A stretch of DNA of 24,000 nt, from contig JAEOTQ010000106.1 of NCBI GenBank assembly GCA_016839785.1, forward strand, positions 5,535 through 29,534. The letters run 5' to 3'. Shown here piece by piece: positions 12,302 to 15,424 of the stretch (within the stretch, counting starts at the first letter, position 1; the number at the start of each line of letters is the position of its first letter). Under the pieces are notes generated by a model that had not been told where the DNA came from, did no database searches, and saw only the letters and a program-made list of their open reading frames with translations. The stretch comes from Candidatus Hodarchaeota archaeon. Lineage in GTDB: Archaea; Asgardarchaeota; Heimdallarchaeia; Hodarchaeales; Hodarchaeaceae. The position numbers and the translations under genes are program-made.

Positions 12302-15300
12302 TCATTGGTTATCTTTCTGACTCTTTTTAATACCAAGGGCTTCACGTACATATTCCTCAACTCTTTTATGTTGATCTTGAGGGGAAAGTTGAGTATCAAG
12401 CTTAAGAATTGAAGTGATGTTAGTTCGAAGTCTTTCAAACTTAACTGATTCTTTCATTGCGATATCATAATAAAGCTTCATATTTTCTTGCTGTGCAATT
12501 CTTAGACATTTATTAATCCAATGTTCCACTTGATTAAACTGAAATGATGCAAGGTCTATTCTTGCTCTCAACAGGTACACTTGACAGAGTTCAGAGTAGT
12601 ATTGATTGTTCTCACAGTCATCTTGCCATTTATTTAGCATGGTGAGCATTTTCTTCTTAGCTACCGGTGAAGGATTACTCAACCAGGTTTTAAATTCGGA
12701 TGCCACAAGAGCACCTTGACAGATGACTTGAAATTCCACATCTAAATTCTCATTATCTAGGGCTGTGATCCATTCTTTTTCTGCTGATCCCCAATTTTTC
12801 TCCGTTTCAGCAAGTAAGGCTTGGATCATGTGATGGAATGCAACAACAGCGGGATGCTTATACGGTGGGGTGGGAAAACGTTGAAGGATGTGGCTTTCAG
12901 GGGTCAGAATTTGTGTTTCTTTCTGCAGAAGAACTATTCTGAGAGATGTTTCAGCGACCATTCTATCGTTTTCTAATAGCTCAAAAACATCCAGAGCGGA
13001 TTCATACTGCTGGATGGATTTTAAAAATTCACATTGAAGGTAAAGGGCATTAGCTTTTGCTAGTAATGTCTTGGCATCTGTTTCAGTTTGCACTAATGCG
13101 ACATAATCAGTAAATCCTAGTTTTTGAATTTTTAACGCAGTAGGATAATCAGGAGCTTTTAATTTCGTAATCCAATTTCTTTTTTCAGTTTCTCGTCTGA
13201 TTCTGACAATAAAGGCTGCTAAGGCAATGTTGGTAATAATAATTAATAATCCTACATGAAATATACTGAAACTGATAAGCGGAAAACTCCAAAATTCACG
13301 GGGATTAGTCCCCCCTCTATATTCGTCTACATTATGAACCCAATCCCCATCTAAATCGAGTTTCGCGTCACTTGGATCTTGTGCATTAAGCCCCATTCTA
13401 AATTCCCAAACATCAGGCATACCATCAATGTCTCGATCATAAAAAGCGTAGATTTTGTCAATGTATTGAAATTCAGGACCAAAATTCATTGGATTTAGAG
13501 AACCACTCTCATTATAGTTTTGTATCCAATCACGGAAAGCCACTAATTTCAACTTTTGATTGAGATAAATATACAGAGAATCATTAGCTGCTATTTCCTC
13601 AATATTTTGGTACATCTCTCGACGAACGTCAATATCCTGTTCAATCGCTGCATCTTCTATCAGAGTGTTCAAAGATGGATTTTCATATGAGAGCATTGTC
13701 GCAAAAACACCATATTGTCCATGTAAATACGGAGCAATAAAATTGTCTGGATCTGCATAATCTGCAGCCCATCCACAATAATTAAGAGGGATTTTTTGAT
13801 GCCAAGAGACCTCATCATACTGATCCTGTTCCATGGGTTGTAGAATTGCCCTTATCCCCACATCACACATCACCAGGGAGTTAGCTAGGGATAAGTAGAT
13901 GTACGAAAGTATTTCGTTATTAACAGGATACACTAATTTAATAGTTCCTTGCCAACCAACTTGCTCAAATAGTATTCTAGCTGTTTCTAAATCGTAGGAG
14001 GGAAGAAGACCCTTTTCTGTTAGATTTTCATTATGACCAAGAATTCCCTCAGGAATGATTCCTTCCATCTGTTTCCCAATTCCATTGAGAATATTATCGA
14101 TATAAAACGAGTAATCAAAAGCACTAGCCATGGCTTTACGGAATATAACCGAAGTAAATGGATTGTTTTGACTTGCTTTTACTTCACCTTTGGCAAATCG
14201 TGATAGGAGACTCGCGTTGTAAATAGAATTTTCTGATTCATTCAGATAGATTTGGGATAGGGATTCTTTCATATTCATCCCTAGAAAGAATGTGGTAGAT
14301 GTTGGGGCGGTAAAAGTAGTTATTCCTTCATAAAGCGACTCACCTGCAGGAGTGATGATTTTATACGCATCTGGTTTTTCTACATAAACCATATCAGAAT
14401 CACCATTGATTAAATTTTGAATGCGGGTGTCATCATCTATTTCCGATCTAATTTCGATCTCCTCGACAGAATGTAAACTAAATGATCCCCACCAATTGTC
14501 ATTTTTCTGAAGAAGAATAGAATTTTCAGTTAGCGACTGTAATTTATATGCTCCAGTGCCAATTGCGTGGTTTTTCATCCATGAATGATAAGAATCACTA
14601 AAGCGATGCGATCCAGGGACTACACCAGATATTTTTGGATTATGATCACTCGTCAATCCCAATTTGGTATAATCCGAGAGGGTGGAAAACCATTTATCCA
14701 GAGGAACCATACCATACACTTTATCCCCAATAAACAATGTGTATTCCGTTGGTCGATTATCTATAACAGCTTTTGGGGAAACAGCACTTCCTACATCGAA
14801 CGCGAGAGAATTAATAAATGGTGAATATGCAGACTCAAGGTTGATTTCTAAAGTATAATCATCTACAACCACAACTCCTCCTGCATCAAGATAAGCTTGT
14901 GCTTCTGTATAATTGGGATTAAAATATTGCATATAGGTTGATCCACCCTTGATAACTTGAGCTATCATCCAAGAGGGCCCCCATGGATCGTTCATGAGTA
15001 TAGATCTATCAATAGAATATTTCATTACGTAGGCGTTAAAAACGACACCATCGTGGAATACAACGTTCTTACGAAGGTTAAAGGTATATACTCGTCCATT
15101 TGGTGAGACAGTCCATCCCGTGGCTAGTCTACCTTCAAGTTCATCGACTGAATTCCCTTTATATCCAACTAAGGATTCATATATCAATTCAATAATAGTA
15201 CTCCCAGTGGTCTCATAATTGATCCCTGGATCTAAGGATTTAATGGCATTTGGTATACTCAGTGTTTCCCAGATAAATTTATCGGGATTCTTTAGTTCCC

Positions 15301-15412
15301 CATTTGCCCTAGAAGCGTGTATTACTGCTGTGGAAGGTTGTATGGCAATTAAAATACTCAGAATCAAAATTGGGAGAATAAATCTAAGATATAGGCCATT
15401 CCTAGCAGTCAT
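12302..15412 (-). CDS. Fusion protein: signal peptide + family-5 (Opp/Dpp/Nik-type) solute-binding domain + acidic Ca-binding-like (TSP3-like) motif + single TM helix + ~300-aa cytoplasmic TPR-like helical domain
   Basis: The ORF track gives 12302..15421 (GTG). I prefer the ATG at 15412 because that GTG sits inside a GAGGTGA Shine-Dalgarno-like element 6-8 nt upstream of it. The signal-like N-terminus is [30 protein letters not shown]. The family-5 SBP hallmark is [27 protein letters not shown]. See the sub-features for the C-terminal parts. The frame is uninterrupted throughout. Confidence 0.8.
   Translation of the reverse strand: [1036 protein letters not shown]
12305..13204 (-). other. 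Cytoplasmic ~300-aa helical, TPR-like domain of unknown function
   Basis: Residues 740-1039 have a K/E/Q/L-rich composition with a single isolated sequon, in contrast to the ectodomain. Helical-hairpin-like stretches include [67 protein letters not shown] and [38 protein letters not shown]. I see no kinase, HAMP, MCP, GGDEF or DNA-binding motif. Confidence 0.5.
13205..13291 (-). other. Single predicted transmembrane helix separating ectodomain from cytoplasmic domain
   Basis: Residues 711-739 read [29 protein letters not shown]. They are followed by RIRRETEKR, a positive-inside signature. Confidence 0.7.
13301..13438 (-). other. Juxtamembrane acidic D-x-D-G repeat pair resembling bacterial/archaeal thrombospondin-type-3 (TSP3)/dockerin-like Ca-binding motifs
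   Basis: Residues 662-707 read [45 protein letters not shown]. This matches the recurrent pattern D-x-D-G-(D-G)-hPDxWE...GLNP.DP.D...D.DGD....N..EY..GTNP seen in many secreted prokaryotic proteins. I recognised the pattern from memory. Confidence 0.55.
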
Positions 15413-15417
15413 TTGGT

Positions 15418-15424
15418 TCACCTC
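15418..15424 (-). promoter_or_regulatory. Shine-Dalgarno-like GAGGTGA upstream of ATG 15412
   Basis: The reverse strand reads ...GGTTTGAGGTGAACCAAATGACT. GAGG is followed by 8 nt and then ATG. Confidence 0.5.

What the first reader, a model, noticed from the sequence alone, without database searches (positions are those of the whole stretch)
12302..15421. Orphan family-5 solute-binding domain fused through one TM helix to a ~300-aa cytoplasmic TPR-like domain: candidate new type of transmembrane receptor
Seen: one uninterrupted ~1036-codon frame. Residues ~45-655 carry the Opp/Dpp/Nik-type SBP hallmark ([27 protein letters not shown]) and external sequons. Residues 662-707 form an acidic D-x-D-G pair. 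Residues 711-739 are a single strongly hydrophobic helix followed by RIRRETEKR. Residues 740-1039 are nearly sequon-free and K/E/Q/L-rich, and read as stacked helical hairpins. Established: anchored SBPs of archaea and Gram-positives normally end right after the anchor. They are normally encoded next to OppBCDF-type importer genes. Here no importer permease or ATPase is in the window, since the adjacent ABC system is exporter-type and convergently oriented. No classical output domain (HisKA, MCP, GGDEF, HTH) is visible. Inference: ligand binding outside may be relayed to an intracellular protein-protein-interaction scaffold. That would be a receptor logic not covered by standard one- or two-component annotations.
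Basis: partly seen in the sequence, partly recalled or inferred. Interest (0 to 1): 0.78.

Follow-up and report, generated by a model that had tools for sequence, protein, structure and literature searches.

The report
Asgard binding protein with TPR tail
An archaeon from the group closest to eukaryotes (Hodarchaeales) has a real, conserved membrane protein with a peptide-type nutrient-binding domain outside the cell and a helical-repeat docking domain inside; it belongs to an undescribed family that puts different outside domains on the same stalk, membrane helix and inside domain, which looks like a simple receptor but has not been tested.

Summary
Window 12302-15421 (-) is one 1039-codon gene: signal peptide, complete Dpp/Opp-type SBP_bac_5 domain, acidic DxDxDG stalk, one TM helix, and a 300-aa cytoplasmic TPR-like solenoid (AF2 pLDDT 93). 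It is not a chimera. At least 12 full-length orthologue clusters exist in Heimdall/Hodarchaeales MAGs, and both halves are under purifying selection (dN/dS about 0.1).

The main new result is that the gene is not a one-off. The stalk-TM-tail cassette is shared by about 50 further protein clusters, all Asgard where named. Their ectodomains are WD40 propellers, or in one case a beta-helix. The SBP version is a single derived clade nested among them.

The tail module also occurs in soluble TPR proteins of the same lineage. There it sits directly before a MarR-type wHTH or a histidine-kinase transmitter, which points to signalling.

"Orphan" status is not diagnostic. The nearest unfused SBPs, which carry PGF-CTERM-like anchors, also lack adjacent importer genes, and Hodarchaeales are reported to encode Opp importers.

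Best reading (about 0.5): a non-enzymatic single-pass receptor or adaptor. Main rival: a surface-tethered transport SBP on an unusual anchor. Function is untested. I rate it a new variant of a known kind, interest 0.62.

The parts
12302..15421 (-). Whole gene, 1039 codons plus stop (stop at 12302-12304)
   Evidence: ORF list and translation. Full-length orthologues at 76-85% identity in L002-L004. dN/dS is 0.08-0.13 in both main domains.
15311..15421 (-). N-terminal signal peptide or signal anchor (residues 1-37; hydrophobic core 9-27; ...AVIHA|S)
   Evidence: Kyte-Doolittle peak 2.41 at 9-27. AF2 helix 4-26 with low pLDDT. This is the least conserved segment, dN/dS 0.33-0.38. The cleavage site is inferred, not predicted with a dedicated tool.
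13457..15310 (-). Extracellular cluster-C solute-binding domain (residues 38-655), Dpp/Opp/GsiB/NikA-like
   Evidence: Pfam SBP_bac_5 E=1.4e-58. AF2 pLDDT >90 over 45-655. Foldseek matches to DppA, GbpA, YliB and DppE at E down to 7e-31, TM (target-normalised) up to 0.88.
13760..13762 (-). Asp554 in [12 protein letters not shown], aligned with OppA Asp419
   Evidence: phmmer alignment to 1b05_A places GWAADY on GWCADY 416-420. That OppA Asp419 anchors the peptide alpha-amino group is from my memory of the OppA structural literature and was not tested here.
13292..13456 (-). Acidic stalk (residues 656-710): two DxDxDG-type, thrombospondin-type-3-like repeats plus the conserved juxtamembrane motif [12 protein letters not shown]
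   Evidence: Sequence. Weak NCBIfam throspo3_MtsD hit at 653-708. Residues 659-710 are shared at 45-65% identity with the WD40-type family members. D685, D689, D691, D693, N697, E700, P707, S712 and P714 are >=90% conserved across 42 members. AF2 confidence is low (pLDDT <50), so the fold is unresolved.
13199..13291 (-). Single transmembrane helix region (residues 711-741), followed by RIRRETEKR
   Evidence: Kyte-Doolittle 2.42 at 723-741. AF2 continuous helix 721-753. The basic cluster lies on the C-terminal side (positive-inside rule; inference).
12305..13198 (-). Cytoplasmic TPR-like solenoid tail (residues 742-1039), with family motifs APDYxTALKI, RFPxPP, NWGxAxxxW, CQGAL and LCxxYLLRAR
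   Evidence: phmmer finds 156 representative clusters. Gap-free alignment A3. AF2 pLDDT 93.1, 14 helices. Foldseek best hits are LGN/Pins, SNAP and Rap, but all at E>3e-3 and TM 0.3-0.5. hhalign to soluble TPR paralogues gives probability 100%, E=1.6e-55.
12986..13081 (-). The one canonical TPR motif in the tail (residues ~781-812)
   Evidence: Profile positions 46-77 of A3 match consensus TPR proteins, 9qhb_A E=4e-35 with repeated matches to the same stretch. Weak TPR_12 hit at residues 783-823 of the query.

Best explanation
The gene encodes a type-I single-pass membrane protein of a Hodarchaeales (Asgard) archaeon.

Anatomy: a Dpp/Opp-like binding domain is held outside the cell on an acidic, probably Ca2+-binding stalk. 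One TM helix connects it to a conserved cytoplasmic TPR-like solenoid.

Family: it is the SBP-bearing branch of a lineage-specific family. In that family one constant cassette (stalk, juxtamembrane motif, TM, ~300-aa tail) carries interchangeable ectodomains: mostly WD40 propellers, here an SBP, once a beta-helix.

Proposed mechanism: a peptide-like ligand closes the two SBP lobes or changes the oligomeric state. This is passed through the conserved juxtamembrane/TM segment. It alters what the cytoplasmic TPR groove binds, so that a cytoplasmic partner is recruited or released. This would be signalling by scaffold rather than by an enzyme domain.

Shown here: the architecture, predicted topology, conservation, purifying selection, family membership and homology of the tail to sensor-position modules.

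Inferred: the ligand class, signal relay across the membrane, and the existence and identity of the partner.
For: 1. Architecture and fusion. The architecture is confirmed. The fusion is conserved in >=12 clusters at 90% identity, 1028-1049 aa long, from Heimdall/Hodarchaeales. All of them have DxDxDG + TM + a ~300-aa tail.

2. Selection. Both halves are under purifying selection. Window vs L002/L003: SBP dN/dS 0.12, tail 0.08.

3. Modularity. Among the 150 listed tail hits (50%-identity representatives), 48 are TM + WD40. One (P0003) stands for the SBP clade. P0125 has a beta-helix ectodomain. All share residues ~659-710, the TM and the tail. A constant transmembrane/cytoplasmic part with swapped ectodomains is the pattern of receptor families.

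4. Conserved membrane-proximal residues. The juxtamembrane and outer TM residues P707, S712, P714 and S719 are >=90% conserved. Plain anchors in the same window are unlike this: proteins 464-2182 and 2237-6262 end right after the TM.

5. Tail paralogues. The tail module is homologous to the C-terminal module of soluble TPR proteins of the same lineage (hhalign probability 100%, E=1.6e-55, 260 columns). In those proteins it lies immediately upstream of one of two outputs:
- a MarR-type wHTH in 6 representative clusters;
- HisKA + HATPase_c in P0056.
This is the position of an input or regulatory domain.

6. Ectodomain. It is a complete two-lobe SBP. Its closest structures are DppA, GbpA, GsiB, MppA and AapF. 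It keeps the Asp that aligns with OppA Asp419.

7. Descent. The SBP-type tails are monophyletic and nested within the WD40-type tails. The nearest unfused SBPs carry PGF-CTERM-like anchors. So an SBP was grafted onto a pre-existing cassette.

8. Possible SBP-cassette link. In L014 two SBP_bac_5 genes sit 44 bp upstream of a WD40-type member. This is a single case.
Against: - No experiment or partner was identified.
- No neighbour gene is conserved beyond close relatives. Only a PlsC-like acyltransferase recurs, with changing orientation, and it is absent from L007 and L013.
- The tail has no enzymatic or DNA-binding output.
- WD40 and beta-helix ectodomains are typical protein-binding or surface-enzyme modules rather than small-ligand sensors. 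The family's common function may therefore be anchoring or adhesion.
- Lack of adjacent importer genes is uninformative, because unfused paralogues lack them too.
- The stalk is modelled with low confidence, so no rigid relay is demonstrated.
- Foldseek matches for the tail are all weak (E>3e-3).
- Topology rests on hydropathy and the positive-inside rule, not on a dedicated predictor.
Confidence: 0.5

Rival explanations
1. Surface-tethered transport SBP. The protein is an ordinary peptide-binding subunit that feeds an Opp/Dpp-type ABC importer encoded elsewhere. The stalk-TM-tail cassette is an alternative anchoring and positioning device, used instead of PGF-CTERM. It fixes various surface proteins (SBP, WD40, beta-helix) to a cytoplasmic or membrane scaffold, for example to cluster them or place them on protrusions.
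For: - The ectodomain is a complete Dpp/Opp-like SBP with the conserved GWxxDYxDPDNF motif.
- The closest relatives are annotated ABC substrate-binding proteins with simple anchors, and they too are unlinked to permease genes. Unlinked SBPs are therefore normal in this lineage.
- Hodarchaeales MAGs are reported to encode oligopeptide ABC importers (10.64898/2026.03.20.713109).
- The cassette carries ectodomain types typical of archaeal surface proteins.
- No output domain and no conserved signalling neighbour were found.
Against: - A 300-aa, strongly constrained cytoplasmic domain (dN/dS 0.08) is far more than an anchor needs. Other surface proteins in the same window use a bare TM plus a few basic residues.
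- The tail module's soluble paralogues are wired to wHTH or HK outputs.
- No permease or ATPase of importer type lies near any of the six fused loci examined, apart from a non-Opp BPD_transp_1 + 2 ABC_tran + PhoU cluster 4-8 kb away in L013.
Confidence: 0.3
2. Adhesion or envelope-organising protein, or a substrate of regulated proteolysis.

The family links extracellular binding of macromolecules, partner cells or the matrix to an intracellular scaffold, in an integrin-like way.

Alternatively, ligand binding triggers shedding and intramembrane cleavage at the conserved S/P-rich juxtamembrane segment. That would release the TPR module into the cytoplasm, where it acts like its soluble paralogues.
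For: - The majority ectodomain is WD40, a protein-protein interaction fold. Multiple TSP3-like Ca2+-type repeats are typical of extracellular adhesive proteins.
- Helix-destabilising Ser/Pro residues at the outer TM boundary are conserved.
- Soluble versions of the tail module exist.
- The structural neighbours LGN/Pins, KLC and SNAP are cytoskeleton or trafficking adaptors.
Against: - The SBP ectodomain keeps the small-ligand architecture and the peptide-amine-binding Asp, which fits solute binding better than adhesion.
- No protease, cytoskeletal or ESCRT gene is conserved nearby.
- The structural matches are weak.
- The cleavage idea has no direct evidence.
Confidence: 0.15
3. Artefact: an assembly chimera or a missed stop or frameshift joins an SBP gene to an unrelated downstream gene.
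For: None found.
Against: - The same collinear 1028-1049-aa architecture occurs in independent assemblies and samples (L002, L003, L004, L007, L013, P0157-P0166).
- Two of these lie on multi-megabase or 229-kb contigs.
- Selection is uniform across the junction.
- The junction region (stalk + TM) is itself a conserved family feature.
Confidence: 0.01

Closest known systems
Uncharacterised Hodarchaeales/Heimdallarchaeia 'WD40 repeat protein / TPR repeat protein' single-pass proteins (e.g. P0008, P0009 = UCG02519.1, P0013 = MHA2334001.1)
   Same: They share the stalk repeats, juxtamembrane motif, TM helix and ~300-aa tail. Tail identity is 38-48% at E 1e-60 to 1e-83. They come from the same lineage. 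This is the true family of the gene.
   Different: Their ectodomain is one or two WD40 propellers instead of an SBP. I found no literature describing the family.
Membrane-anchored cluster-C solute-binding proteins of ABC importers (OppA/DppA/GsiB/NikA; archaeal PGF-CTERM- or TM-anchored SBPs)
   Same: The ectodomain family and fold match, as does the conserved GWxxDYxDPDNF motif. The nearest sequence relatives are such proteins from the same lineage, at 36-51% identity.
   Different: Those proteins end 4-27 residues after the anchor and classically sit in opp/dpp operons. This one has a TSP3-like stalk and a 300-aa cytoplasmic domain, and no importer genes nearby.
Receptors built on SBP / Venus-flytrap domains (BvgS/EvgS-type sensor kinases, class C GPCRs, ionotropic glutamate and natriuretic-peptide receptors) and SBP-dependent sensing (LuxP-LuxQ, halobacterial BasB/CosB with transducers); from established knowledge, not tested here
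   Same: The logic is the same: a periplasmic-binding-protein fold outside, coupled through the membrane to a cytoplasmic signalling part.
   Different: Those receptors use other SBP clusters and have enzymatic, channel or G-protein outputs. Here the inside part is only a TPR-like scaffold, the SBP is cluster C, and there is a single TM.
TPR-sensor regulators (RNPP family Rap/NprR/PlcR; MalT-type TPR regions) and TPR adaptors (LGN/Pins, kinesin light chain, alpha-SNAP)
   Same: The tail has a solenoid of helical hairpins. These are its best Foldseek hits and weak Pfam TPR_12/TPR_MalT hits. Its soluble paralogues have a TPR + wHTH layout like one-component TPR regulators.
   Different: Matches are weak (E>3e-3, TM 0.3-0.5, 10-15% identity). 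The tail is membrane-tethered and lacks an HTH or phosphatase part. The family motifs (APDY, RFPxPP, NWG, LCxxYLLRAR) are not those of any Pfam or NCBIfam model.
Membrane-anchored cytoplasmic TPR proteins (Tom70/Tom20, bacterial LapB/YciM); from established knowledge
   Same: One TM helix plus a cytoplasm-facing TPR domain used to bind partner proteins.
   Different: Those are N-terminally anchored and have no ectodomain. No sequence relationship was detected.

Membership tests
SBP_bac_5 / cluster-C solute-binding proteins | Sequence match to the family model above the curated threshold | tested here: met
   PF00496 E=1.4e-58, 199.3 bits against a cut-off of 32.4, residues 94-569 covering model positions 1-364 of 368.
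SBP_bac_5 / cluster-C solute-binding proteins | Complete two-lobe (three-domain) periplasmic-binding-protein fold | tested here: met
   AF2 pLDDT >90 over 45-655. Foldseek to DppA, GbpA, YliB and DppE at E 1e-28 to 7e-31, target TM-score 0.72-0.88.
SBP_bac_5 / cluster-C solute-binding proteins | Peptide-amine-anchoring Asp in the GW..D motif (OppA Asp419 equivalent) | tested here: met
   GWAADY (550-555) aligns with OppA GWCADY 416-420. The functional meaning is taken from memory of OppA structures. Ligand binding itself was not tested.
SBP_bac_5 / cluster-C solute-binding proteins | Encoded with cognate OppBCDF/DppBCDF-type permease and ATPase genes | tested here: not met
   None in the window or in L002, L003, L004, L007 or L013. 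However, unfused paralogues P0175 and P0187 also lack them, so this feature does not discriminate in this lineage.
Hodarchaeales stalk-TM-TPR-tail cassette family (unnamed, defined here) | ~300-aa C-terminal module with the APDYxTALKI, RFPxPP, NWGxAxxxW and LCxxYLLRAR motifs | tested here: met
   phmmer gives E 1e-104 to 1e-40 against ~50 long TM proteins. The alignment with them is gap-free.
Hodarchaeales stalk-TM-TPR-tail cassette family (unnamed, defined here) | DxDxDG repeats plus a G(S/T)NPR(D/E)FWS(V/F)PL juxtamembrane motif and a single TM directly before the module | tested here: met
   Residues 659-710 are 45-65% identical to the WD40-type members. Conserved columns are listed. The TM lies immediately before the tail in 57 representatives.
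Hodarchaeales stalk-TM-TPR-tail cassette family (unnamed, defined here) | N-terminal signal sequence and a large ectodomain between it and the TM | tested here: met
   Hydrophobic N-terminus at 9-27 in the query and in most full-length members.
Canonical TPR repeat proteins | Pfam TPR models matched above threshold in this protein | tested here: not met
   TPR_12 reaches only E=0.24 (full protein) or 0.074 (tail alone), 12-14 bits against a cut-off of 30.
Canonical TPR repeat proteins | TPR-type helical-hairpin solenoid fold | tested here: inconclusive
   The model has 14 helices in hairpins, and the top Foldseek hits are all TPR or SNAP solenoids. But E is 4e-3 to 3e-2 and TM 0.25-0.53. The family profile matches one consensus TPR at positions 46-77. 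24 of 35 family tails hit TPR_12/TPR_2 weakly.
Two-component / one-component / chemoreceptor sensors | HisKA + HATPase_c, MCPsignal, GGDEF/EAL, Ser/Thr kinase or HTH output domain | tested here: not met
   No such hit in Pfam or NCBIfam at E<=1. Only soluble paralogues of the tail module carry a wHTH or HK.
PGF-CTERM / archaeosortase-sorted surface proteins | C-terminal PGF motif + TM + short basic tail at the protein's end | tested here: not met
   The query has no PGF motif, and 298 residues follow the TM. The nearest unfused SBPs do end in ...PGFE...KRRRK.
Thrombospondin type-3 (Ca2+-binding) repeats | Match to TSP_3 models; Ca2+ binding | tested here: inconclusive
   No Pfam TSP_3 hit at E<=1. 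NCBIfam throspo3_MtsD reaches E=5.5e-5, far below cut-off. The DxDxDG spacing is visible in the sequence. Ca2+ binding is not testable here.

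The most novel reading that the evidence does not exclude
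Hodarchaeales, the archaea placed closest to eukaryotes, may have their own family of non-enzymatic single-pass receptors. Interchangeable ectodomains (WD40 propeller, SBP, beta-helix) sit on a common Ca2+-stalk/TM/TPR cassette. The cassette would signal by ligand-controlled recruitment or release of cytoplasmic partners. Candidates include the soluble paralogues that carry the same module fused to a wHTH or a histidine kinase. This would be receptor-adaptor logic of a eukaryote-like kind, outside one- and two-component systems. The SBP member would be its small-molecule or peptide sensor.
Probability: 0.25. Interest if true: 0.85.

Novelty: new variant of a known kind. Interest (0 to 1): 0.62.

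Why it matters
If the cassette is a signalling device, it would be a prokaryotic transmembrane signalling scheme with no enzymatic or DNA-binding output on the receptor. It would also be confined to the archaeal lineage nearest to eukaryotes, where the origins of receptor-adaptor signalling, surface-protein organisation and membrane trafficking are open questions.

The SBP member is the most tractable entry point. Its ectodomain belongs to a family with well-understood ligand chemistry, so ligand screening and tail-partner screening are directly feasible.

Even if it proves to be only an anchor, three things remain useful for annotating Asgard genomes. There is a ~50-cluster family of extracellular WD40 proteins with a conserved cytoplasmic domain. 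A new TPR-like module exists that no Pfam or NCBIfam model covers. That module is wired to wHTH or HK outputs in soluble proteins. These proteins are currently labelled 'hypothetical', 'WD40 repeat protein' or 'ABC transporter substrate-binding protein'.

Tried and rejected
- Word-indexed homologue search with the tail, alone and as a profile, found only 2-3 proteins. Recall was poor. The exhaustive representative search was what revealed the family.
With the narrower A4 it gave one locus, L006. A large neighbourhood survey was therefore not possible.
- Sequon enrichment as topology evidence: 6 against 1 sequons is too few to mean anything.
- Conserved-neighbour search across eight fused loci. 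Only a PlsC-like acyltransferase recurs, in the four closest relatives, with inverted orientation in two of them. It is absent from L007 and L013. I rejected it as a functional partner.
- Soluble TPR paralogue 2.7 kb downstream in L013, and two SBP genes directly upstream of a WD40-type member in L014. Both are single occurrences, recorded as leads and not used as evidence of linkage.
- Weak MIT-domain hits in 8 of 35 tails. I attribute these to the generic TPR-like three-helix similarity and not to an ESCRT link.
- The weak NRDE-2 hit was dismissed as HAT/TPR-like helical-repeat noise.
- The chimera/frameshift hypothesis was rejected on orthologue evidence.
- Literature searches for Asgard with WD40/TPR/transmembrane, thrombospondin, or SBP receptors found no description of this family.

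Full report
**1. The observation**

Window 12302-15421 (minus strand) is a single 1039-codon ORF.

Pfam places SBP_bac_5 on residues 94-569 at E=1.4e-58. NCBIfam gives partial NikA, Opp, Dpp and GsiB matches.

Hydropathy finds two hydrophobic segments only. One is at 9-27, an N-terminal signal sequence. The other is at 723-741, followed by RIRRETEKR.

Between the SBP and the TM lies an acidic stretch with two DxDxDG-type repeats, with a weak thrombospondin-type-3-like hit.

The last 300 residues have no Pfam or NCBIfam family; TPR_12 reaches only E=0.24. AlphaFold2 on a 35-sequence alignment gives an all-helical, 14-helix solenoid at pLDDT 93.1 and pTM 0.88.

A full-length model (pLDDT 87) shows four parts:
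- a confident SBP at 45-655;
- a low-confidence stalk at 660-720;
- one long helix at 721-753;
- the confident tail.

Only the sequon argument is too thin, at 6 against 1.

**2. The fusion is real**

A genome scan found collinear full-length orthologues in three MAG contigs:
- Heimdallarchaeota B3_Heim, 85% identity;
- Heimdallarchaeota MAG_8, 85%;
- Hodarchaeota YT2_004, 76%.

The ectodomain search added more. At least 12 clusters at 90% identity are 1028-1049 aa long, and every one has the DxDxDG stalk, a TM and a ~300-aa tail. A 98%-identical partial protein is labelled Hodarchaeales.

Two orthologues lie on a 3.16-Mb and a 229-kb contig.

Nei-Gojobori estimates against L002 and L003 give dN/dS of 0.12 for the SBP, 0.12-0.18 for the stalk, 0.07 for the TM and 0.08 for the tail. 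Both halves are maintained by selection, so a chimera or missed stop is excluded.

**3. The tail defines a family**

An exhaustive phmmer search with the tail against 1.84 billion representatives found 156 clusters at E<=1e-3.

About 57 of these are long proteins in which the tail directly follows a TM helix. Pfam on 42 of them shows WD40 beta-propellers in 36. A local classification of the 150 listed hits gives 48 TM + WD40 clusters. One cluster, P0003, represents the whole SBP clade. One, P0125, has a right-handed beta-helix ectodomain.

All share the following with the query:
- the last acidic repeats;
- a G(S/T)NPR(D/E)FWS(V/F)PL juxtamembrane motif;
- the TM helix;
- the tail with its motifs APDYxTALKI, RFPxPP, NWGxAxxxW, CQGAL and LCxxYLLRAR.

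Every member that carries a source name is from Hodarchaeales, Heimdallarchaeota or 'Promethearchaeota'.

In a neighbour-joining tree of 66 tails, the SBP-type tails form one clade nested among the WD40-type tails. The nearest unfused relatives of the ectodomain are Hodarchaeales/Promethearchaeota SBPs at 36-51% identity. They end 4-27 residues after a PGF-CTERM-like anchor.

The simplest history is that an SBP of the lineage's own anchored family replaced the WD40 ectodomain of a pre-existing cassette protein, once.

**4. What the tail is**

- The family profile matches consensus TPR proteins, but only through one canonical repeat at profile positions 46-77, which is residues ~781-812.
- Foldseek against the PDB returns only TPR-type solenoids: LGN/Pins, alpha-SNAP, Rap proteins and kinesin light chain. 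All are at E>3e-3 and TM 0.25-0.53.
- 24 of 35 family tails give weak TPR_12/TPR_2 hits, and 10 give TPR_MalT hits.

So "TPR-like" is right, but the module has no close solved or curated relative.

The second half of the hit list is more informative. It consists of ~56 soluble TPR proteins of the same lineage. Their C-terminal 260 residues are homologous to the tail (hhalign probability 100%, E=1.6e-55). In these proteins the module is followed by one of two outputs:
- a MarR-type winged helix in six representative clusters;
- HisKA + HATPase_c in P0056.

The module therefore occupies the input position of one-component regulators and of a cytoplasmic histidine kinase.

A few membrane members (P0021, P0052, P0060) add an unknown ~150-aa domain after the module.

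**5. What the ectodomain is**

The model matches DppA, GbpA/HbpA, YliB (GsiB), MppA, OppA, AapF and NikA at E down to 7e-31. Target-normalised TM-scores reach 0.88, best against open or unliganded forms.

The motif [12 protein letters not shown] aligns with OppA GWCADYNEPTSF. This puts Asp554 on OppA Asp419, the residue that I recall anchors the ligand's alpha-amino group. A peptide-like ligand is therefore the best guess, but it was not tested.

**6. Genomic context**

The window has an ABC-2 exporter (7460-11163), a PlsC-like acyltransferase, a flavodoxin, an ACT protein and a GNAT around the gene. It has no importer permease or ATPase. The same is true in L002-L004, L007 and L013.

Only the acyltransferase recurs. 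It does so only among the four closest relatives, and with changed orientation. The gene looks like a stand-alone unit.

The unfused paralogues P0175 and P0187 also have no transporter genes within 8 kb. A recent preprint reports oligopeptide ABC importers in Hodarchaeales MAGs (10.64898/2026.03.20.713109). "Orphan" status therefore does not separate a sensor from a transport SBP in this lineage.

**7. Interpretation**

I favour a non-enzymatic receptor/adaptor, at about 0.5:
- A constant stalk/TM/tail carries swapped ectodomains.
- Juxtamembrane and TM residues are strongly conserved.
- The cytoplasmic domain is tightly constrained, far larger than an anchor needs.
- The cytoplasmic module is used elsewhere as the input part of wHTH and HK proteins.

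The main rival, at about 0.3, is a transport SBP on an elaborate anchor or positioning device. An adhesion, scaffold or regulated-proteolysis reading takes about 0.15. The remainder covers function unlike any of these. An artefact is excluded (0.01).

**8. Novelty**

SBP-based receptors and anchored SBPs are both known kinds. This gene is a new variant: a cluster-C SBP on a single-pass cassette whose only cytoplasmic part is an uncurated TPR-like module.

The cassette family itself appears undescribed in the literature I could search. Its members are annotated as hypothetical, WD40 or ABC-SBP proteins.

Interest is 0.62. The architecture and the family are solid and lie in a lineage of high evolutionary interest, but the function is inferred.

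Noticed in passing
L014:5823-13483 (Heimdallarchaeota CP070695.1): Two tandem SBP_bac_5 genes lie directly upstream of a WD40-type cassette gene (P0009), on the same strand and only 44 bp away. They are 73% identical to each other, carry YGFE...RRRKW anchors, and are not blastp-similar to the window's ectodomain. This could be a functional link or a precursor state for an SBP-cassette fusion. It is a single case so far.
   Followed up: partly
Proteins P0058, P0073, P0080, P0093, P0109, P0121, P0056, P0134 (soluble paralogues; e.g. L016:10001-12019): Soluble Hodarchaeales TPR proteins carry the same C-terminal module as the tail. It is followed by a MarR-type winged helix or by HisKA + HATPase_c, or preceded by an ArsR-type HTH. 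This appears to be an uncurated family of TPR one-component regulators in Asgard archaea.
   Followed up: partly
Proteins P0008, P0009, P0013 etc.; L005:3968-7516, L008:10001-13972 and 2158-4947, L015:10001-13405: About 48 representative clusters of Asgard proteins place one or two WD40 propellers between a signal sequence and a TM helix. WD40 domains predicted to be outside the cell are unusual. L008 has two such genes within 10 kb.
   Followed up: partly
Protein P0125 (1040 aa): The same stalk-TM-tail cassette carries a right-handed beta-helix (NosD-like, TVVNNTC repeats) ectodomain. This is a third ectodomain type in the family.
   Followed up: partly
Proteins P0021, P0052, P0060: These cassette members have an extra ~150-aa conserved C-terminal domain (GSFTDxG...EYSAVLxQHGE...YGPFPQ...GGMVPA) after, or partly replacing, the tail module. 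It has no Pfam hit.
   Followed up: partly
window:15749-16310 (+): A flavodoxin (Flavodoxin_5) gene is split into two overlapping ORFs, 15749-16114 and 15987-16310. This suggests a frameshift, either a pseudogene or a sequencing error, immediately upstream of and divergent from the target gene.
   Followed up: no
window:2237-6262 (-) and window:464-2182 (+): Two other surface proteins both end a few basic residues after a C-terminal TM anchor. One is a 1341-aa sequon-rich NosD/beta-helix protein with Ig-like repeats and a Ser/Thr-rich stalk. The other is a beta-lactamase-family protein. They show the ordinary anchoring style in this genome, for contrast with the target.
   Followed up: partly
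window:7460-11163 (+): An ABC-2 type exporter operon: a DrrA-like ATPase and two ABC2_membrane_3 permeases with large extracellular loops. It is followed by a PlsC-like acyltransferase (11270-12184) that stays next to the target gene in the four closest relatives.
   Followed up: partly
window:20752-21780 (+): A molybdopterin oxidoreductase domain (Oxidored_molyb) is fused to a multi-TM DUF4079-like domain. This is an MsrP/MsrQ-like fusion with a signal sequence.
   Followed up: no
window:17547-18086 (-): A 179-aa protein made of two ~80-aa internal repeats (KxEPxFKIxSKKAxxLxxxxLWxxLYSxTKxIxxPxxL). It has no Pfam family and is conserved in L004 (7820-8371).
   Followed up: no
L013:15827-17347 and L013:2221-6913: Near the fused orthologue P0161, a soluble TPR_MalT/TPR_12 protein with a partial tail-like module lies 2.7 kb downstream. 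A BPD_transp_1 + 2x ABC_tran + PhoU cluster lies 4-8 kb upstream. Neither is Opp-type, and neither is conserved at other loci.
   Followed up: partly
L009:1-7968 and L011:11797-18244: The unfused PGF-CTERM-type SBP paralogues sit next to giant predicted surface proteins (>3000 aa and 2153 aa, DUF7743) rather than next to transporter genes.
   Followed up: no
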